NCBI GenBank assembly: GCA_004524535.1
Contig: SDNY01000090.1
Span: forward strand, 1-15,039
Source: Promethearchaeota archaeon
GTDB lineage: Archaea; Asgardarchaeota; Lokiarchaeia; Sigyniarchaeales; SOKP01
Direction: 5' to 3'
Length of the DNA: 15,039 bases
Numbering within the stretch: position 1 is the stretch's first letter; the number at the start of each line of letters is the position of its first letter. Both the position numbers and the translations under genes were made by a program. The notes under the pieces were generated by a model. The model searched no databases. It saw nothing but the letters and a program-made list of their open reading frames with translations, and had not been told where the DNA came from. This document shows, piece by piece, positions 1 through 9,723 of this stretch.

Positions 1-318
1 GAAAACGATGTAGAGGATGGATTTGTGAAGCTAGTTGTTGATAAATCATATAAAATTTTAGGTGCTCACATTGTTGGTCCATATGCTGCGATTTTAGTTC
101 AACCATTTGTCTATTTAATGAATTCTGGCTTTTCATGCAATTTAGAAGAAGGTCTTGATCTTAATCTAATACCAAAAACACTGCGAGCTTGTCCGGAAGG
201 TGGTTCATTTATGCCAATATACCATTCAATGATTATACATCCATCTCTTAATGAGGTAACAGGTTGGGCAATCGGTGGATTAAGACCAGTAAATATTAAA
301 CAGGAACATAATCACTAA
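1..318 (+). CDS. C-terminal dimerisation domain of a class I pyridine nucleotide-disulfide oxidoreductase (dihydrolipoamide dehydrogenase/mycothione reductase-like); 5'-truncated by the window edge
   Basis: Frame is open from base 1 (ENDVEDGFVKLVVDKSYKILGAHIVGP). The GFVKL...ILGAHIVG and HPSLNE (HPTLSE-type His-Glu dyad) motifs are present. The GTG at 25 is an internal Val. Confidence 0.85.
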   Translation, partial: ENDVEDGFVKLVVDKSYKILGAHIVGPYAAILVQPFVYLMNSGFSCNLEEGLDLNLIPKTLRACPEGGSFMPIYHSMIIHPSLNEVTGWAIGGLRPVNIKQEHNH

Positions 319-361
319 TATTAATGCTCAATAATCTCAATGCATCGCTATTGAATAGAAA

Positions 362-375
362 TTTTTTTTTCTTTT
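362..375 (+). terminator. Oligo-T tract, putative archaeal-type terminator between convergent genes
   Basis: T9-C-T4 run about 45 bp after the stop at 318. Confidence 0.4.
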
Positions 376-1267
376 ATTTATCTTTGAATTCTTTGATTAA
401 GATATGGTTTTTATCATAATCATCCATAATTCCTTTAAATCTTTTTTCTAAAGCTCTCTTCCAAAATCTTCCCGTTTCTGTGAGGATATAGAATATATCT
501 CTACGAATTGCTTCAAATACAATATCACCAGCTTCATCAGCTGAAGTACCCTTATCCCATAAATTTACCATTTCTCTGGCCATAGTTTCAAGATGTGGAT
601 GTTTTTTTATAATCCTTTCTATGTATGGTTCAAAATCTGGATCACAAAATTCCTCTGGACGATTTCTTTCGCATCGTGCAATATTGGTGGTGACAATTCC
701 TGGGCAAAGAACAGAGACATTAATTTTATGCCTCAATTGATTAAGACTTATTTTTAAACTCTCAGAAAGTGCCACAACTCCTTGTTTTGAGACACTATAG
801 ATACCATTCCATGCGTCTCCAGACATTAATCCTGCCATTGATGAGGTATTAATAATATGACATTCAGTATCTTGTTGAATCATTATAGGAATAAAAGTTA
901 GAATTCCATGAATTATACCCCACAAATTTACTCCTAAAGCCCATTTCCAATCATTTAATCTAGTCTCCCATAGAAATCCGGGAGATGCTACTCCTGCATT
1001 ATTACATAATAAATGGACTTCTCCAAACTTGTCGATTGTTTTTTGGGCTAAATTTTCAACATCCTCTATTTTTGAAACATCTGTTACTATAGATATAACA
1101 TCAACTCCTTTTGACTTTAATTCCTCTTCGGCAGCCAACAGAGCATCTTTTTCAATATCAGCTAAAACTACTTTCATACCCTCTTTGGCAGCTCTCCTGG
1201 CTATACCGAGGCCAATTCCGCTTGCGGCACCCGTTATAACTGCCACTTTGTCTTTAAATTCCTTCAT
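374..1267 (-). CDS. Short-chain dehydrogenase/reductase (classical SDR)
   Basis: TGAASGIG Rossmann motif, NNAG, catalytic Ser (NTSS), YSVSK (YxxxK) and LCPG motifs; an acidic residue after beta2 (LADIE) suggests NAD(H) preference. Confidence 0.95.
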   Translation of the reverse strand: MKEFKDKVAVITGAASGIGLGIARRAAKEGMKVVLADIEKDALLAAEEELKSKGVDVISIVTDVSKIEDVENLAQKTIDKFGEVHLLCNNAGVASPGFLWETRLNDWKWALGVNLWGIIHGILTFIPIMIQQDTECHIINTSSMAGLMSGDAWNGIYSVSKQGVVALSESLKISLNQLRHKINVSVLCPGIVTTNIARCERNRPEEFCDPDFEPYIERIIKKHPHLETMAREMVNLWDKGTSADEAGDIVFEAIRRDIFYILTETGRFWKRALEKRFKGIMDDYDKNHILIKEFKDK

Positions 1268-1402: not shown

Positions 1403-1461
1403 TTATAATTCCAAGAAATTTTTAAGGATTTGCATTCCATGGAGCTTCATTTTGATGGATT
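1403..1461 (-). repeat. Direct repeat copy A1: remnant 3' end of a TrpG/PabA-like glutamine amidotransferase gene
   Basis: 1405-1461 matches 2220-2276 at 51/57 nt without gaps (hand alignment). The minus strand reads SIKMKLHGMQILKNFLEL-TAA. Confidence 0.85.
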
Positions 1462-1568
1462 AGTAACAATGGTGATAATCATCTATGCGATAATATATAA
1501 ATTAAAACTGTTTTATATTTATTGAATATCCCTAAAAGAGTAATATAGATAAATATTTAAGAGTTAAA

Positions 1569-2021
1569 ATGAAAAAATTAAAAATCTTCCTTGATACTTC
1601 AGTTTATAGCTCGCTTTTTGATAATCGAATTCCAAATCGTCAAAAAATGACGCAAGATTTCTGGAATAATATTGGAGATTATGAGCTTTATTATTCTGAA
1701 ATAATATTAGAAGAGATAAATGCTGTTTCAAATGAAAATTTAAAGAAAGATATGAAAAACTTATTAAAAGATGGAGAAAAATTAAAGACCTCAACGGAAG
1801 TAGAAAATTTAACTCAAATCTATATTAAAGAGGGGCTAATTCCAGAAAAATATGAGAATGATGCGGTTTTAATTGCTCTAACTTCTGTCTATTCGTTAGA
1901 CATATTAGTTAGCTGGAATTTTAAGCATTTAGTGAAGAGAAAAACTAGAATTGGAGTAAATCTTATAAATTTAAAAAACGGATATAAAACAATTGAAATT
2001 CTAGCTCCACCAGAATTATAG
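1569..2021 (+). CDS. PIN-domain (VapC-like) ribonuclease, putative type II TA toxin
   Basis: N-terminal IFLDTSV, SEIILEEI, DAVLIA and LVSWNFKHL motifs carrying the conserved acidic PIN residues; 150 aa. Confidence 0.88.
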   Translation: MKKLKIFLDTSVYSSLFDNRIPNRQKMTQDFWNNIGDYELYYSEIILEEINAVSNENLKKDMKNLLKDGEKLKTSTEVENLTQIYIKEGLIPEKYENDAVLIALTSVYSLDILVSWNFKHLVKRKTRIGVNLINLKNGYKTIEILAPPEL

Positions 2022-2026
2022 AGGTG
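2021..2026 (+). promoter_or_regulatory. Shine-Dalgarno GAGGTG for the downstream small ORF
   Basis: GAGGTG overlaps the PIN stop codon and ends 8 nt before the ATG at 2035. Confidence 0.7.
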
Positions 2027-2034
2027 TAAAATAT

Positions 2035-2202
2035 ATGTTATACAATATTGAAAATTTAATTAAAGAAGCTAAATTATCAGAAAAAGAAAAAACAAAGATT
2101 ATTGCGGAGGTAAGAGAAGAATTCCCTCAGGATGAGATGCTTTTTGAATTACATCTTTTTCGGTTATTACAGCATTTGAAAAAACAGAAAGTAATGAAAT
2201 AG
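2035..2202 (+). CDS. 55-aa helical protein, putative antitoxin (absent from the ORF track)
   Basis: Hand translation: MLYNIENLIKEAKLSEKEKTKIIAEVREEFPQDEMLFELHLFRLLQHLKKQKVMK*. It has a strong SD and starts 13 nt after the PIN gene. Confidence 0.75.
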   Translation: MLYNIENLIKEAKLSEKEKTKIIAEVREEFPQDEMLFELHLFRLLQHLKKQKVMK

Positions 2203-2217
2203 CAAATTCATAAAAAG

Positions 2218-2292
2218 TCATAATTCTAAAAAATTTTTTAGGATTTGCATACCATGGGGCTTCATTTTAATGGATTTGGGATGAAATTTCAA
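2218..2292 (-). pseudogene. Direct repeat copy A2: remnant 3' end of a TrpG/PabA-like class I glutamine amidotransferase gene
   Basis: The minus strand reads LKFHPKSIKMKPHGMQILKNFLEL-TGA, matching the family ending QFHPESI...G..IL.NFL. It is preceded by an in-frame stop, so it is only a fragment. Confidence 0.75.
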
Positions 2293-2324
2293 TTAACTCT
2301 TAAATTTTCATCTAATACCAAATT

Positions 2325-2523
2325 AACCTATTGTTCAAATAAAATTACATGAAGGGGTAAATCTTCCTCTATTTTTTTCTAAATATTGTTGATGATACTC
2401 CTCAGCGTGCCAAAATTCTGATGCAGGTACTATTTTCGTAACAATAGGATTACTATACTTTTTAGACAGTTCTAACCTTTTCCTTGAATTCTGTGTTGCC
2501 TTTTTCTGTTCCTTATTTAAATA
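2325..2523 (-). pseudogene. msrA: Orphan 3' fragment of msrA (direct repeat copy B1), including 10 bp beyond the stop codon
   Basis: Ungapped match to 4836-5034 at about 181/199 nt by hand count. It encodes YLNKEQKK...FWHAEEYHQQYLEKNRGRFTPSCNFI* and lacks the GCFWG active site. Confidence 0.93.
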
Positions 2524-2607
2524 CATATTCCGTATTTTCATCTTCATCAAAATCTATTTTATTAAATTTTAGAAAAAATAAATAATAAATCTTCATTAAT
2601 CGTTTAC

Positions 2608-2796
2608 ATGAAAGATGAACACTCTGATTATTTTCTAAGAAGGATAACAGAGAATGATGGAGAAAGGTCATTCCAAACAATTAGAGAAGAATTCAATACT
2701 CCATCTGGGACTCTAAAGGAGTATGTTAAGGAAGATAGAAATTGTAATGATGCGGGTCTCTTTTCTGTTCTTCCTTTCCTTCATAAAATGAAATAA
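2608..2796 (+). CDS. Hypothetical 62-aa ORF, possibly a decayed HTH-containing gene
   Basis: ATG-started ORF. SFQTIREEFNTPSGTLKEYVK has HTH-like spacing, but no family is recognised. Confidence 0.3.
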   Translation: MKDEHSDYFLRRITENDGERSFQTIREEFNTPSGTLKEYVKEDRNCNDAGLFSVLPFLHKMK

Positions 2797-3113
2797 CCTT
2801 TCGACCTAGCGACTTAAAAGTTATGTCGAGATCCTCATCAAAATAACCCACCAACCTCGTTGAAAAAATAGGGTAAATCTTTCTTGATATAGCCTTAGAG
2901 ATTGAAATGATTTTTCTTGCTTTTTTATCGGAAGTATGGATTTTAAGCGAAAGTATGGGAAGTTATGTGTGTATTAAAATATTCAAATTGGAATGCCGTT
3001 CTAAATGAAATTACTCTAATTTTTATTCCAAATTACATATTCGACAATCTGTCATATTTTATAAGCATCAGAATTATAAAATAATTTAATATTGTAATTT
3101 TGATTATTAAACA

Positions 3114-4091
3114 ATGGGAATACATATGAGTATTAATGTGTCTAATTTATATCTTATTTTGTTTCACCAAGTAAAAGGGATAGGAATTAAGAAATTAAAA
3201 GAGATTTACAAAAAATTTGGAGATTTTCAAAAAGCTTACAACGCACCTTTAGAAGATTTTGAAAAAATAATTAAAGAAAAAAAAGTAATAACAAATGTCC
3301 AAAAATTTCTTAATCAAAAAGAAGATGTAGTGAAAAAAGTAAAACAAATAAATATACTCTTAAAAAATAGAGAAGTAAGATATGTATCTTATTTTGATAA
3401 TGATTATCCTAAGCCCTTGCTAGAAATTGAAGACCCTCCTGTAGGATTATATATTAAAGGAGATTATTTATTTGAGTATTTAGAAAAAAGTGTATCAATC
3501 ATTGGCACACGAGACCCTTCTTTTTATGGGCATTCAAAAGCAAGAACTATTGCAAGAGAACTAGCGGAACAAGGTTACACCATTGTAAGTGGATTAGCAA
3601 GAGGTATTGATATGGAAGCACATTTAGGAGCTCTTGAAGGAGGGGGTAATACTATTGCTGTGTTAGGGTCAGGTGTAGAAAATATATATCCTGAAGAACA
3701 TAAAAACCTTGCCAAGGATATTTTGGATAATGGTGGAGCTTTAATTTCAGAATTAGATGTTAATCAAAGAAGTAGTCCTCATAGCCTCGTGAGTAGAAAT
3801 AGAATCGTTAGCGGTCTATCTAAAGCCTCATTAATAATAGAGGGAACATTAAAGAGTGGAACGAGACATGAAGCTAATTTTGCAAGAACTCAAAATAAAT
3901 ATTTATTTGCTCTAAGACCATTATCTTTATCTCGTGAAATCTCAGAATTACCTCTAGACCTAATAGAAAATGGTGCAATCGGTATTGAGACAACCTCTGA
4001 TATCATCGATTTCATAAATTCTAGTATCATAAGGGATGAATCAAAAAAGAAGACTAAAAAGGATTTAATGGATTTTATTAGAATTGAATAA
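3114..4091 (+). CDS. dprA: DNA-processing protein DprA/SMF
   Basis: N-terminal SAM/HhH-like VKGIGIKK, YPKPLLEIEDPP.GLYIKG, IIGTR, VSGLARGIDMEAH.GAL, AVLGSG...IYP and RNRIVSGLS motifs. There is no C-terminal winged helix. An alternative start lies at 3126. Confidence 0.95.
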   Translation: MGIHMSINVSNLYLILFHQVKGIGIKKLKEIYKKFGDFQKAYNAPLEDFEKIIKEKKVITNVQKFLNQKEDVVKKVKQINILLKNREVRYVSYFDNDYPKPLLEIEDPPVGLYIKGDYLFEYLEKSVSIIGTRDPSFYGHSKARTIARELAEQGYTIVSGLARGIDMEAHLGALEGGGNTIAVLGSGVENIYPEEHKNLAKDILDNGGALISELDVNQRSSPHSLVSRNRIVSGLSKASLIIEGTLKSGTRHEANFARTQNKYLFALRPLSLSREISELPLDLIENGAIGIETTSDIIDFINSSIIRDESKKKTKKDLMDFIRIE

Positions 4092-4107
4092 ATAAGACGA
4101 TGCTAGC

Positions 4108-4836
4108 ATGGTCAAGGAACAAGATGGTGTAATAATTTTAGACAATGATATAAGTGTCTTACCAATTTTTAATAATTATTGTTCAAAATGTAAAAAAAAT
4201 TTATCTTCAGGAGGACATTGCTATCAATGTCAACAATATCCATATGAGTCTGTAATTAATCTAGGATATTATTTTTCTGGATGGTTTCGGATGAAAGACC
4301 GTTATATTAGAGCCGATATTAAAAAGACCTTTGATTTGAACCTTGTTAATCCAAAATATAAATTTAGCAAATTAATCAATGATTCTAAGCGCCGTTGGTA
4401 TAGAAATACAATTTCGGATAAAAAGGCAACTATAAAGATACTTAGTAAGGGTCTTGCTTGGAAAATGTTAAAATATGAAAATCAGATTGTAAAAATAATT
4501 GATATTATTGTGCATATCCCTAAAAAAGAGGAAAATCCAGATAGAGATGATCTAGAGTGGAACCTCTTTAATCACGGGTATTATTATGCTAGATATTGTT
4601 CAGAAGAATTAGCTATACCATTCAAAGATAATTTGATATACGAACAAGAAGACTCTAGAAAGGGAGATCGTAATTTTGGGATTTCCAGTAATATAAGTAT
4701 AAGAAATAAGAATATCCTCATTATTGATGACACTTATACAAGAGGAGATACCAAAGGGCCGATTTCAGATCGTCTAAAAAAAGCAGGAGCATCTCAAGTA
4801 TATATTGGTGTGATCGGGAGATCAATAGTTATTTAA
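4108..4836 (+). CDS. comF: ComF-family protein: zinc ribbon plus type I phosphoribosyltransferase domain
   Basis: CSKC-x9-HCYQC zinc ribbon, PRPP-binding loop ILIIDDTYTRGDT and LKKAGASQVYIGVIGR ending; starts 16 nt after dprA. Confidence 0.75.
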   Translation: MVKEQDGVIILDNDISVLPIFNNYCSKCKKNLSSGGHCYQCQQYPYESVINLGYYFSGWFRMKDRYIRADIKKTFDLNLVNPKYKFSKLINDSKRRWYRNTISDKKATIKILSKGLAWKMLKYENQIVKIIDIIVHIPKKEENPDRDDLEWNLFNHGYYYARYCSEELAIPFKDNLIYEQEDSRKGDRNFGISSNISIRNKNILIIDDTYTRGDTKGPISDRLKKAGASQVYIGVIGRSIVI

Positions 4837-5034
4837 ACCTATTGTTTAAATAAAATTACATGAAGGAGAAAATCGGCCTCTCTTTTTTTCTAAATATTGT
4901 TGATGATACTCCTCAGCTTGCCAAAATTCTGATGCAGGTACTATTTCCGTAACAATAGGATTTCTATACTTTTTAGATTCTTCAACCCTTTTCCTTGAAT
5001 TATGTGCTGCCTTTTTCTGTTCCTCATTTAGATA
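4836..5034 (-). repeat. Direct repeat copy B2 (3' end of intact msrA)
   Basis: Matches 2325-2523 at a constant offset of 2511 bp; begins at the last base of the comF-like stop codon. Confidence 0.93.
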
Positions 5035-5334
5035 AAAGATAGCTGATCTATATTGAGAGCCAATATCCAATCCTTGACGATTCAATGTGGTGGGGTCATG
5101 AATATCCCAAAATATTTCAATCAAATCTGTATAAGAAATAATGGTTGGATCAAAAGTCACTTCTACTGCTTCAGCATGGCCCGTTTTATGAGAACATACA
5201 TCTTTATAGGTGGGATTTGGAAAATTACCCCCTGTATAACCAACTCGAGTAGAAATTACCCCTTTTAGTTTTCTAAACTGTGCTTCTATACCCCAAAAAC
5301 AACCTGCTGCAAAAATTGCGATTTGATAGTCCAT
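4846..5334 (-). CDS. msrA: Peptide-methionine (S)-S-oxide reductase MsrA
   Basis: GCFWG, VGYTGG, PTY..VC...TGHAE, HDPT..NRQG.DIG.QYRSAI and AEEYHQQY motifs, with a C-terminal Cys. Confidence 0.97.
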   Translation of the reverse strand: MDYQIAIFAAGCFWGIEAQFRKLKGVISTRVGYTGGNFPNPTYKDVCSHKTGHAEAVEVTFDPTIISYTDLIEIFWDIHDPTTLNRQGLDIGSQYRSAIFYLNEEQKKAAHNSRKRVEESKKYRNPIVTEIVPASEFWQAEEYHQQYLEKKRGRFSPSCNFI

Positions 5335-5485: not shown

Positions 5486-5884
5486 ATGAAGTCGAAAATT
5501 AATGAGAAAAAAGAATTAACTAAAGAACAAAAATATGTTCTATATCAAAAGGGCACTGAACGACCGTTTAGTGGAAAATTTTGGGATAATCATGAGGATG
5601 GCACTTATAGATGTGCAGGATGCGGTTCTGAGTTGTTTTCTTCTGATACAAAATTTGATTCAGGAACCGGTTGGCCAAGTTTTTATGATGTACTCGATCC
5701 TGAGAAAGTTGAACTAAAGACAGATACTAGTCTTGGAATGATCCGGACCGAAGTCGTGTGTAAAAATTGTGGCGGTCATTTAGGGCATATGTTCAAAGAT
5801 GGTCCAAAACCAACTGGATGTAGGTATTGTATTAATTCAGCTTCTTTGGATTTTGAATCTGTGAATTTCCAAAATAAATGCTAA
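5486..5884 (+). CDS. msrB: Peptide-methionine (R)-S-oxide reductase MsrB (Zn-binding type)
   Basis: [39 protein letters not shown] and RYCINSASL motifs. The ATG at 5486 is preferred to the GTG at 5465. Confidence 0.97.
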
Positions 5885-6051
5885 ATTTTCCAAATAAGCG
5901 GAATTAGCAGAAGTTTCAAAACGAATCAAAGAGAATCTAAGGAGGGTTAATTATCTTTAAGTTGAGATAATTTTTATAAAAAATTACCCAAAAATATAAT
6001 TAGTAAAAAAGTAATTGTTCTAAATAAAAATTAAATTTTTTATTATTAAAA

Positions 6052-8859
6052 ATGCTAGAAGCTTATAGCGAGACTGTAGAGGAATTATTAAAAAACTTGG
6101 AGACAAGTGTAAATGGATTAACTTCTGGAGAAGTTGAACGGCGTTTACAAAGATATGGAAAAAACGAAATAGAAACTGGTAAAAAGATAAGTCCTCTAAG
6201 AATCTTTCTTAGTCAATTTAAGGATTTATTAGTAGTTATTTTAATTGTCGCGGGAATTATCACAGCATTAATTGGTATCATTGAGGATGATGAGAATGTA
6301 ATTATTGAAATCATAGCAATAAATATTGTCATTATTCTAAATGCGAGTTTAGGTTTTTATCAAGAATATTCAGCAGAAAAAGCAATTGAAGCTTTAAAGA
6401 CTTTATCAAAAAGTGAAGTGATCGTACTTCGAGATAACGAAAAACTGAAAATAAAATCAGAATTTCTGGTTCCAGGCGATATTGTATTCTTAGAGGCAGG
6501 GAATCTCATACCGGCGGATATTCGCTTGATTAAAAGTTATGAAATCAATGTGGATGAGGCAATATTGACGGGAGAATCGTTAAGCGTTCGAAAAAACATT
6601 CTCCCCCTCCCTGAAAAAACTCCTTTAGCCGATAGAAAGAACATGATATATAAAGGGACTACAATTTCAAGTGGCTCGGGAAGAGGATTAGTTGTTTCCA
6701 CAGGTTTAAATACAGAACTCGGAAAAATCGCATCATCTTTAGCTGGAATCAAAGCTGAAGATACCCCAATTCAAAAGAAATTAAAAATCCTAGCTAAACA
6801 ATTGACAATCTTTATTATCATCATAGTTGCGAGCATATTCCTTATACAAATCTTATTTGTTGGGTTAGATGACTTTACGGAATTATTCATTTTTGCTATT
6901 GGACTCGCAGTGGCGGCGGTACCCGAAGGATTACCCGCAGTCATGACCCTTTCCTTAGCAATCGGAGTTACTCGAATGGCAAGGCAAAAAGCCCTTATTC
7001 GGAAACTTCCTGCTGTAGAAGTTTTAGGCTCGAGTACGATTATTTGTACGGATAAAACTGGAACCCTCACGAAAAATGAAATGACAGTCACCTTAATCTG
7101 GACTCTCGATCATCAATATAATGTCACCGGGACGGGATACAGTAATTTTGGTCAGATAATGAAAGTTAATACTGCTAAACAAGTTGAATCTAAATATACA
7201 ATAGAATTAAAATCATTAATAGAAATTGGTACTTTAGCTAATGAAGCTTCAGTTGATTACCAGGGTGAGGGACAACCCTACAAAGTATTTGGAGATCCTA
7301 CGGAAATATCATTGTTAATTTTAGCCGAAAAAGACCAAACAGTCGAAGGGATAAAAAATAACTGGGATATTGAATATTTATTTCCTTTTGACAGTAATCG
7401 GAAACGAATGAGCGTTATTTCGAAAAATAAAAAAACAGGAAATCATCATATAATGGTAAAAGGAGCTTTGGATATAATGCTAGATCTATGCGATTCCTAC
7501 ATGGAGTCTGGTCAAAAGAAGCCAATGACCACCGAAATGAAAGATAAAATCAATAAAATAAGCGAAAGATATTCAGCTAATTTTGCATTTCGAATTTTAG
7601 GTTTTGCTTCACGAGAAATAAATCCTGAAGAATCCAAGAAATTAGTGGAAGAGAAAAAAAGTCAATTGGTCGAGGATAATCTTACATTTATAGGTTTCGT
7701 AGGAATGATTGATCCAGCAAGAGAATCCTCAAAACCCGCAGTATTGAAAGCAAAAAGGGCAGGAATTCGTGTAATAATGATTACGGGAGATCATATGGCA
7801 ACTGCCAGAGCAATTGGAACTGAAATTGGAATATGTGTTAAAACAACGCCAATTACCGGAGTAATGCTTGACAAGATGTCAGATGAGGAATTAGAAGATG
7901 TAATTAAGGAAGTTGAGATTTTTGCTAGAGTGGATCCATCTCATAAATTACGCATTATCAGCGCATTGAAAAAGCATAACGAAATAGTAATAATGACAGG
8001 TGATGGGGTTAATGATGCTCCAGCACTCAAGAGAGCAGACGTTGGGGTCGCGATGGGGATAACTGGGACTGATGTTGCAAAAGAAGCTAGTGATATGATA
8101 TTAGTGGACGATAACTTTGCTAACATAATAGAAGCTGTTGGAGAAGGACGGAGAATCTATGATAATATTAAGAAATTTATAAGTTACCTTTTATCTGCTA
8201 ACGCAGGAGAGATTCTGACCGTTTTAATTATTGTGTTGCTGTGTTTAATATATTCTAACCACATTATCCTTCCGATCCTTGCAATTCAATTACTTTACAT
8301 AAACTTAGTAACTGATACTTTTCCAGCACTAGCTCTGGGGGTTAGTCCTAAGGAGGAGGATATTATGGAAAGAAATCCTAGAGATCCAAGCGAACCATTG
8401 TTAACTAAAGAAATGATAATTAATATTGTCATATTTGGACTATTAAATGCCCTTGCGTGTATGTTTTTATTTATTTGGAGCTTAGATTTTAATTTAGCGA
8501 TTAATTTTCAGGAAGCTGATCTTTCACGTCAAAGAACAATAATTTTTGCCGCATTAGTAATCTTTCAGATAATCCAGTGTCTTTCGGTAAGTCAAAATAC
8601 CACGATATTTTCAAAAAAGACTATAGAGAATAAAGTGTTAATAGGAGCTATTATCTTGGCTATATTCTTATTGCTTTTTGCAATTTACGTACCTTTTTTG
8701 CAAATCTTTATGGGTACATCTCCGATTGGACCAATAGAGTGGTTAATGATTTTGCTTGCTGCAATTCCAATCTTATTCTTTTCAGAAATCTATGAGAGAA
8801 TAGTATTTAAACCAGAAAAGTTGGAAGAAACGAGTGAATCAGATACTGTTTGTGATTAG
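6052..8859 (+). CDS. P-type cation-transporting ATPase, type IIA (SERCA-like, probably Ca2+)
   Basis: [22 protein letters not shown] and [11 protein letters not shown] motifs; TM5 ANAGE and TM6 NLVTD Ca2+ ligands; about 10 hydrophobic segments. Confidence 0.95.
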
Positions 8860-8880
8860 TCTAAAAATTACATTATATTC

Positions 8881-8887
8881 TTTTTTT
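8881..8887 (+). terminator. Oligo-T tract after the ATPase
   Basis: T7 run about 22 bp downstream of the stop codon. Confidence 0.35.
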
Positions 8888-8945
8888 CTATTATTAAAGT
8901 AAAATATAGGGAAAAATTAATCGAGTCTAATATTTTTAAAGAACT

Positions 8946-9380
8946 TTAATGAGAGAACTCCTCATGATCATGAGCCAATTTTCCCTTTTTGAAATTTCTA
9001 ATGATGACACATGTTATTAATATTATAACAATTTCAATAGCATTATAAATAATAATCTCAATTATTACTAAAATATTGGTTTGTTGTATATTTATAATTA
9101 AAATTATATTTAAAACCACTAAACTGATAATTTCAGCAATTATTGCTAATTTTAGTAAATTTATTCCCGTTTTAAGATAATCAACACCAAGAAGGCTATA
9201 ATCCTCTTTTGCAAGAATAGCAGCTATTATTAAACTGAATCCCGCATATAAAGATGAAATTGCTAGTAAAATTTCAATTCTTGATGAACCCTCAAAAAAT
9301 AATAAAATTCCTATAATTGGATTCAATACCATTAATATTCCATTTAGGATACATATATAGACTGCAGTTTTCTCTCTCAT
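8946..9380 (-). CDS. Hypothetical membrane protein (about 4 TM helices)
   Basis: Four long hydrophobic stretches and a polar, His-rich tail (HDHEEFSH). The ATG at 9380 is preferred to the GTG at 9392. Confidence 0.7.
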   Translation of the reverse strand: MREKTAVYICILNGILMVLNPIIGILLFFEGSSRIEILLAISSLYAGFSLIIAAILAKEDYSLLGVDYLKTGINLLKLAIIAEIISLVVLNIILIINIQQTNILVIIEIIIYNAIEIVIILITCVIIRNFKKGKLAHDHEEFSH

Positions 9381-9723
9381 TGTTAAAAACACTTCCCATT
9401 GGGGACTTGTTAAGAATTATTTTAAAGGTATTAATTAAATTTTATTAAATTTTAATCTTATGAATTATTTATTCTTATCTTCAATTTAAGCATAATTCTT
9501 CAATTTGCGTTTTTTTTGGAAAACTTTGCGTTTTTTTAAAAAAGAATACTTCATTCTATCTATTTGTTTATAAATGAATTAGCAGTTTTTTTGGAAACTC
9601 ACAAATGACTAATAATTCGAGAACATTTTAGTTGAACTTTGTGAACTTTTCTTATATTAAATAATTAGATAAAAAAAACTATTCTATGTAATGAATTTTA
9701 AAAAATAAAAAAAAATATAAGAA

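What the first reader, a model, noticed from the sequence alone, without database searches (positions are those of the whole stretch)
1403..5034. Two stacked cargo cassettes, each flanked by a duplicated 3' end of a housekeeping gene, with no integrase
Seen: reading the minus strand gives intact msrA, then [comF-like, dprA], an orphan msrA 3' end, 32 bp, a GATase 3' end, [small ORF, PIN] and a second GATase 3' end. In both cassettes the cargo is on the + strand, convergent with the gene-end copy on its right, and the paired copies are ungapped but only about 89-91% identical. Established: integrative elements that target gene 3' ends carry a replacement end and displace the old one, and homology-facilitated illegitimate recombination in transformation leaves similar scars. 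Inference: this is a recurrent insertion hotspot where two-gene TA/defence-type modules arrive attached to a foreign allele of a gene end. Two different target genes and no recombinase favour a homology-driven or trans-mobilised route over a single site-specific element.
Basis: partly seen in the sequence, partly recalled or inferred. Interest (0 to 1): 0.85.

Follow-up and report, generated by a model that had tools for sequence, protein, structure and literature searches.

The report
Integrase-free cassette arrays at gene ends
In this Asgard archaeon, small blocks of accessory genes have been slipped in behind the ends of ordinary genes, each leaving a spare copy of that gene end, and behind trpG this has built a long integron-like array of swappable cassettes for which no integrase was found; the window holds one such insertion at msrA and a stray piece of the trpG array.

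Summary
The repeats are real, but the locus is a sample of something larger. The 'GATase end' is the last ~70 nt of trpG. The genome holds 26 copies; 22 lie in one co-oriented ~72-kb array behind the trp operon, separated by toxin-antitoxin and metabolic cargo. Both window copies are orphans about 55 kb from trpG, and their PIN cassette also sits between trpG ends in another organism's array. The msrA orphan is the displaced ancestral end: a relative has different cargo at msrA and an orphan with the same flank. About 20 more genes carry such 3' orphans, and 4 of 6 tested sites are empty in relatives. No tyrosine recombinase was found in 97 trpG loci, no serine recombinase in this genome, no attC, and no viral carrier. 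Remnant lengths run from ~30 nt to 1.3 kb and cassettes change neighbours at the remnants. Best reading: homology-anchored insertion, then shuffling by ordinary recombination (0.65). Junctions pile up near QFHPES, so a trans-acting recombinase is not excluded. The scan noted the same phenomenon earlier in other genomes, at other genes; I found no paper on this array.

The parts
4846..5334 (-). Intact msrA, the anchor gene of the right-hand insertion
   Evidence: PF01625 6e-69; 95% protein identity to G008 msrA
4836..5034 (-). Gene-borne copy of the msrA repeat; its TAA stop and downstream flank differ from both orphans
4108..4836 (+). ComF-like phosphoribosyltransferase with N-terminal CxxC-CxxC motif; probable toxin/effector of a DprA-PRTase pair
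   Evidence: PF00156 weak; ShosT 2e-5 over 43 residues only; Atlas ComF/PRTase clusters; cysteines kept in homologues
3114..4091 (+). DprA-family protein, the only one in the genome; probable antitoxin/sensor
   Evidence: PF02481 2e-61; ShosA 4e-72; single tblastn hit
2759..2959 (-). Fragment from near the 3' end of a membrane-protein gene whose full copies lie on C89, C165 and G008:C17
   Evidence: 76-80% DNA identity
2608..2796 (+). 62-aa truncated ORF; its start resembles a 186-aa cargo ORF on C104 (seen by eye, not aligned)
2325..2523 (-). Orphan msrA 3' end: the displaced ancestral end, decaying
   Evidence: shares TGA stop and flank with the G008 orphan; 2 syn: 10 nonsyn changes
2306..2334 (.). 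Ancestral sequence downstream of msrA, shared with the G008 orphan
   Evidence: G008:C21:51377-51448 matches 2306-2377 at 93%
2220..2288 (-). trpG 3'-end remnant, about 70 nt, from the QFHPES block to the stop
   Evidence: 57 of 67 nt match the C80 trpG
2035..2202 (+). 55-aa ORF, constant partner of the PIN gene; probable antitoxin (inferred)
   Evidence: paired with PIN on C165 and in L183, L070; no family at cut-off
1569..2021 (+). PIN-domain (VapC-like) gene; cassette shared with other trpG arrays
   Evidence: PF01850 4e-5; 82% over 803 nt to L183 between two trpG ends, 80% to L136
1405..1461 (-). Second trpG 3'-end remnant; decayed homology continues to about 1499
   Evidence: alignment with L183 and L136
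374..1267 (-). Short-chain dehydrogenase, left neighbour; not adjacent to this site in G008
289..405 (+). 3' end and flank of the pyridine-nucleotide-disulphide oxidoreductase gene; a third gene end that occurs as orphans in G008 (three copies)

Best explanation
Accessory DNA from related Lokiarchaeia enters by homology-anchored additive recombination. A donor piece 'gene X + downstream cargo' pairs with resident X. The far end of the cargo is joined without long homology to a point inside X, either directly (HFIR-like) or after circularisation. X stays intact, sometimes with a foreign tail, and the old end is pushed behind the cargo. Each event leaves a new short repeat, which is itself a landing pad, so host recombination can add, drop and reorder cassettes without an integrase. 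Behind trpG, whose QFHPESIKMKP block is the best conserved DNA among donors, this has grown into an integron-like array. TA pairs are enriched because repeat-flanked cargo is otherwise easily lost. The window is one msrA insertion (DprA-PRTase) next to a displaced fragment of the trpG array (PIN pair). Shown: repeats, polarity, empty and alternative alleles, foreign tails, cassette sharing, no recombinase found. Inferred: the enzymes (RadA and end joining), the form and route of donor DNA, TA stabilisation, present-day activity.
For: 21 unrelated target genes besides trpG, repeats 44-388 nt. Mirror-image 5' cases exist: 6 listed, 1 an artefact, 1 with an empty allele in G008. Empty sites at 4 of 6 tested: rps17|rpl14 (4 of 5 genomes), ahcY and trxB (G008), glyA (5 of 5). 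Foreign tails: gene copy 79-80% vs orphan 93-96% to the empty allele at trxB and glyA, the foreign tract reaching 100-500 nt upstream of the repeat; at rps17 the allele switch lies inside the repeat. trpG remnant starts range from -715 to +42 and one displaced block is about 1.3 kb. 44 of 44 multi-copy contigs are co-oriented and 37 of 37 remnants lie downstream of the full gene. 15 of 22 multi-member cassette ends meet different next cassettes. One junction with both sides known is a 4-5 nt AATT microhomology. No conserved cargo-side half-site. No tyrosine recombinase in 97 loci, 1.12 Mb, nor on trpG contigs of 39 genomes except one 143 kb away; no serine recombinase in G000; nothing in viral contigs. 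40-bp homology suffices in Pyrococcus furiosus (PMC5099854, passage).
Against: 44 of 97 independent junctions fall at -13 to +4 (2.4 per nt against 0.1-0.4 upstream). Two other conserved blocks upstream (perfect-match share 0.27-0.28 against 0.33-0.38) do not show such a peak. Decayed upstream homology explains few of them (0.523 vs 0.497, p 0.04; 2 of 54 clear). Short remnants lean towards one synonymous spelling (p 0.02 vs full genes, 0.08 vs long remnants). The genome encodes XerA and a second tyrosine-recombinase-like ORF and a MutS-family protein, and no ComEC was found. HFIR is described as rare (PMC5361080, passage). Only 7 of 56 indels between G000 and G008 carry a repeat of 40 nt or more. 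No circle or excision was seen.
Confidence: 0.65

Rival explanations
1. The trpG end is a specific recombination site used in trans by a host or element enzyme (XerA, the C144 ORF, or an unrecognised family), as in pdif modules or CALINs; the other gene-end scars have another origin.
For: Junction peak at -5 and -2; weak allele bias; an imperfect 11-nt inverted repeat starts at -5 (read from the consensus); XerA-like hit in 38 of 39 genomes.
Against: No conserved partner half-site; no folding signal, z +0.5 to +1.0 in 5 of 5 copies; 0 of 179 copies have attC R boxes; 33 of 97 junctions lie further upstream, to -715; 21 other targets.
Confidence: 0.18
2. Tandem accretion of ordinary integrative elements that target the trpG and msrA ends, followed by loss of their integrases.
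For: Known for ICEs at protein-gene ends, with RecA-made hybrids (PMC5812530, passages); the geometry is the same.
Against: No tyrosine recombinase among 179 copies in 97 loci, including young 90-94% remnants; no mobility family among 128 of 200 cargo and neighbouring ORFs scanned; variable crossover points; no viral carrier.
Confidence: 0.1
3. Local tandem duplication followed by deletion; the cargo is ancestral.
For: A few of the 21 sites have paralogous cargo (C194).
Against: Empty alleles with one repeat copy, including inside the rps17-rpl14 operon; foreign gene tails; other cargo at msrA in G008; full DprA matches in only 18 of 134 genomes.
Confidence: 0.04
4. Assembly chimera of co-occurring strains.
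For: MAG of 198 contigs with 4.4% contamination; a second allele joins 1319 to 2295 in the probable source run; no listed contig spans the block. The 72-kb path is one valid walk through repeats, not a read-proven one.
Against: Same architecture on single contigs of other genomes and metagenomes; cassette pieces at few differences in a run from another study; copies too divergent to be collapsed alleles.
Confidence: 0.03

Closest known systems
Sequential displacement arrays attributed to homology-facilitated illegitimate recombination: Vibrio T6SS effector-immunity arrays, Rhs orphan C-termini (PMC5361080, passages read)
   Same: Upstream homologous anchor, old part pushed downstream, arrays grow without a known integrase, integron analogy.
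   Different: There the displaced part is the functional cargo of one toxin system. Here the anchor is a housekeeping gene end, the cargo is unrelated to it, the remnants stay recombinogenic, and over 20 genes are used in an archaeon.
Integrons and CALINs, including those of Asgard archaea (10.1101/2022.02.06.479319, passages read)
   Same: Co-oriented repeats between 1-2 gene cassettes, TA enrichment, cassettes shared and reordered between genomes.
   Different: No IntI, no attC R boxes or hairpin; the repeat is a coding gene end of variable length; cargo lies in both orientations and can be many kb.
Tandem accretion of ICEs/CIMEs at protein-gene ends, e.g. SXT/R391 at prfC (PMC5812530, passages; the Streptococcus fda case seen only as a reference title and recalled)
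   Same: Gene restored, end duplicated, tandem arrays remodelled by homologous recombination.
   Different: Those need an element integrase and a fixed att core; neither was found here.
DprA + PRTase anti-phage system and ShosTA (PMC9122126, PMC11961720, passages read)
   Same: DprA-like gene next to a PRTase gene, patchy, in a variable locus; the pairing recurs in 12 of 18 DprA loci.
   Different: [quoted passage not shown]

Membership tests
Integron / CALIN | IntI tyrosine recombinase at or near the array | tested here: not met
   (CALINs lack it too, so not decisive alone)
Integron / CALIN | attC sites: R boxes and stable single-strand hairpin | tested here: not met
   0 of 179 copies with R boxes; z +0.5 to +1.0 in 5 of 5; no attC covariance model was available
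Integron / CALIN | Co-oriented repeats separating exchangeable, TA-rich cassettes | tested here: met
Integrative element at a gene 3' end | Element-encoded tyrosine or serine integrase | tested here: not met
   serine families tested in G000 only
Integrative element at a gene 3' end | Fixed crossover with a conserved attP half-site | tested here: inconclusive
   44 of 97 junctions within 18 nt, the rest spread over 750 nt; no cargo-side motif
Integrative element at a gene 3' end | Empty target allele in relatives | tested here: met
   4 of 6 sites; not found for msrA itself
HFIR / sequential displacement | Foreign tract starts upstream of the duplicated part, orphan is resident | tested here: met
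   trxB and glyA; rps17 and ahcY switch inside the repeat instead
HFIR / sequential displacement | Microhomology at the non-homologous join | tested here: inconclusive
   one resolvable join, 4-5 nt; the defining feature is recalled, the primary paper was not held
HFIR / sequential displacement | Dependence on RecA/RadA and on DNA uptake | not testable with these tools
   no ComEC match in G000
ShosTA | DprA-like ShosA | tested here: met
   PDLC03961 4e-72
ShosTA | ShosT with N-terminal hydrolase plus PRTase | tested here: not met
   242 aa, only the PRTase motif matches
VapBC-type TA | PIN toxin with small adjacent partner | tested here: met
   partner lies downstream and has no family; toxicity untested

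The most novel reading that the evidence does not exclude
The 70-nt QFHPES-to-stop segment of trpG is a dedicated capture site kept at a fixed left edge and served by a host factor outside the tyrosine and serine recombinase families, making this a host-encoded gene-capture system of Asgard archaea that shares one cassette pool across genera.
Probability: 0.15. Interest if true: 0.85.

Novelty: new variant of a known kind. Interest (0 to 1): 0.62.

Why it matters
Asgard genomes are large and mosaic, and the integrated elements in the survey I read are integrase-driven. Here is a visible, countable route of gene gain that needs no element enzyme, leaves a datable scar, and at trpG behaves like an integron made from a housekeeping gene end. 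Cargo includes TA and defence pairs, metabolic blocks and LRR and WD40 proteins, one inserted inside the ribosomal protein operon. Such islets are invisible to integrase- or attC-based island finders. The array also makes a long-standing question testable: whether short-homology recombination alone can run cassette arrays in natural populations.

Tried and rejected
attC-like hairpin: not supported. Rfam: no match in the window and four array loci. Viral carrier: 0 pattern matches and 0 TrpG relatives. Retroposition of 5'-truncated copies: rejected because orphans keep the ancestral flank and lie only downstream. Steady renewal of remnant 3' parts as the cause of the junction peak: seen in single clusters but weak overall, and novel amino-acid changes in long remnants are 0.06-0.09 upstream, 0.05 in the block, 0.14 after it. 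Rate comparison with other genomes: 3 parent genes in 520 kb of G008 (all on the contig chosen for msrA and trpG), 1 in 400 kb of two closed genomes of another family, 1 or 0 in five smaller sets; too little to rank. Read depth is low over the cassettes, but only part of each run was read and other genes show the same holes, so it was not used. The 1319-2295 joint has 30 letters on its short side at 85% likeness and is a hint only. The first junction mapping mis-assigned neighbours and was redone. DprA as the uptake engine: rejected, it is cargo and patchy. hisS site unresolved. No structure, complex or covariance-model jobs were run. Supplements of the papers were not opened and could list such islands.
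Full report
Setting. The window is the whole contig C18 of G000, a 3.66-Mb, 30% GC genome in 198 contigs. It is an Asgard archaeon of the Loki type by inference: a homologue of the window PRTase is labelled Candidatus Lokiarchaeia and earlier scan notes say the same.

Observation. Both repeat pairs are present at the stated places and far beyond chance. The msrA end occurs only twice in the genome. The short repeat does not: a profile finds 26 copies. Two are the ends of full trpG genes, the rest are remnants.

The trpG array. Contig-end overlaps allow one path C52 (trpE) - C80 or C167 - C133 - C167 or C80 - C138. It holds 22 copies over about 72 kb; the second full trpG is a 1.3-kb displaced block that begins inside trpE. 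Between copies lie ParE (6 Pfam hits), PIN, DUF433/DUF5615 and antitoxin genes and larger metabolic blocks (67 of 94 ORFs scanned, none a mobility family). Relatives show the same design on single contigs, e.g. G008 with trpG and 6 remnants over 50 kb. A pattern matched 47 of 134 genomes of the family, 21 times in G000 and at most 4 times elsewhere. With 65 of 67 metagenome loci (two duplicates dropped), 97 sequences held 179 copies, 42 full. All 44 multi-copy contigs are co-oriented, all 37 remnants sharing a contig with a full gene lie downstream, and 11 of 21 full genes with 3 kb of downstream DNA have a remnant. Of 22 cassette ends seen more than once, 15 meet different next cassettes, 6 the same, 1 is unscorable; two of the 15 are old and may only have diverged. 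The clearest case is a RelE cassette, 95% identical in G000 and G008, joined through a 69-nt remnant to different neighbours.

The window. G008:C21 is syntenic at 79-94% with the right part of the window and runs on to the trp operon, placing the window about 55 kb upstream of trpG with its remnants inverted. Both window copies are therefore strays. Their PIN cassette lies between two trpG ends in L183 (82% over 803 nt) and before one in L136. A contig in the probable source run joins 1319 to 2295 without the block, a hint only. At msrA, G008 carries different cargo and then a 72-nt orphan. The two orphans share the TGA stop and the flank, while the two intact genes have TAA and unrelated flanks. 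So the orphan is the displaced ancestral end and the site was hit twice with different junctions. The orphan's divergence is mostly decay. The cargo is a DprA + PRTase pair: full DprA matches occur in 18 of 134 genomes, with a PRTase neighbour in 12 of 18 loci, own included. It works like the DprA-PRTase and ShosTA systems but lacks ShosT's hydrolase domain.

Genome-wide. A self-comparison found 30 pairs of '3' orphan downstream' from 25 parent ORFs: 4 trpG-derived and 21 others, among them msrA, hisS, ahcY, rps17, trxB, glyA and a Rad51-family gene. It also found 6 '5' orphan upstream' (one an artefact of a trpG remnant) and 3 other rows. Six sites were tested in five relatives: four empty, one with other cargo, one unresolved. 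The rps17 case splits the rps17-rpl14 adjacency (rpl14 named by eye), which fixes the direction as insertion. Against the empty allele, trxB and glyA have a resident orphan and a foreign gene tail that starts upstream of the repeat, which fits a linear donor or a trimmed repeat. rps17 and, roughly, ahcY switch allele inside the repeat, which fits a circle or decay. The route is a minority one: 7 of 56 indels between G000 and G008 over 534 kb carry a repeat of 40 nt or more, 9 carry 1-39 nt.

Engine. G000 has XerA and one weak tyrosine-recombinase ORF, both on other contigs, and no serine recombinase. A home-made profile found none in the 97 loci; its positive control was part of its training set. 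In 39 genomes PF00589 shared a contig with trpG once, 143 kb away. Viral contigs gave nothing. There is no attC signature and no cargo-side motif. Against a pure homology model, 44 of 97 independent junctions sit at -13 to +4 of the FHPES codons (the search pattern under-samples later starts, not earlier ones). That block is the best conserved among working alleles (0.82-0.85 against 0.66-0.81) and begins with an AT-rich stretch prone to microhomology, as in the one resolved join. Other conserved blocks lack such a peak, so a trans-acting enzyme remains possible.

Mechanism. Most likely (0.65) homology-anchored insertion creates the first repeat, and ordinary recombination between 60-400 nt gene ends then adds, removes and reorders cassettes; TA pairs persist because they resist loss (inference). 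The route of DNA entry is unknown: no ComEC was found.

Literature. Passages read: PMC5361080, PMC11529989 (no hit for 'duplicat', 'direct repeat' or 'homologous recombination'), PMC5099854, PMC11961720, PMC9122126, bioRxiv 2022.02.06.479319, PMC5812530. Searches (listings and abstract starts) showed no description of trpG-end arrays or of integrase-free gene-end islets in Asgard archaea; subscription journals and supplements were not seen. Earlier scan notes report the same kind of scar in another Promethearchaeota genome, arrays at the actin and 16S ends in Thorarchaeota, and islets in bacteria; these are unchecked leads, and look-ups by the trpG sequence and by look-alike stretches gave nothing on this array.

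Verdict. Interest 0.62.

Noticed in passing
L087:1479-4633 (G000:C188): An LRR-protein gene and a small cysteine-rich ORF sit between rps17 and rpl14, bracketed by a 70-nt duplicated rps17 end; four relatives are empty.
   Followed up: yes
L095-L096 (G000:C51:23038-60708): A 36.5-kb island rich in radical-SAM/B12-type and polysaccharide genes is bracketed by a 198-nt duplicated end of a DRTGG-domain gene.
   Followed up: partly
G008:C21:51459-56781 and G008:C17:5562-5671: The oxidoreductase end at window 289-405 occurs as three orphans in G008, two beside msrA; the window is a rearrangement breakpoint between two G008 regions.
   Followed up: partly
window 374-405: The last ten codons of the SDR gene match sequence that in G008 is the stop and terminator region of a convergent membrane-protein gene.
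   Followed up: partly
G001:C4, L072, L073, L075: trpG-end remnants occur in genomes where no full trpG was found with this query (G001, G115) or on contigs apart from trpG (G056).
   Followed up: partly
L005 (G000:C138:34294-36728), G005:C1, G008:C21, G001:C4: An old, decayed remnant sits beside a lysX/lysZ-like block (names by eye) in four genomes; this may be the fixed far end of the array.
   Followed up: partly
L006 (G000:C123:50891-63973): A stray 363-nt trpG remnant lies in a defence-like island with DUF4238, an AAA_15 ATPase and a restriction-modification methylase.
   Followed up: no
G000:C144:14802-16559: 585-aa ORF with a weak tyrosine-recombinase match, below the Pfam cut-off, among island-like genes.
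   Followed up: no
window 5860-9602: The P-type ATPase and a 148-aa ORF are absent from G008 with a clean join and no repeat.
   Followed up: partly
L083 and G005:C1:387900-393373: A glycosyltransferase/GH130 block lies behind hisS in G000 and inside the trpG array region in G005: the same cargo at different anchors.
   Followed up: partly
family f1: Full trpG was found in only about 26 of 134 genomes, scattered across genera, so the trp operon itself may be exchanged.
   Followed up: no
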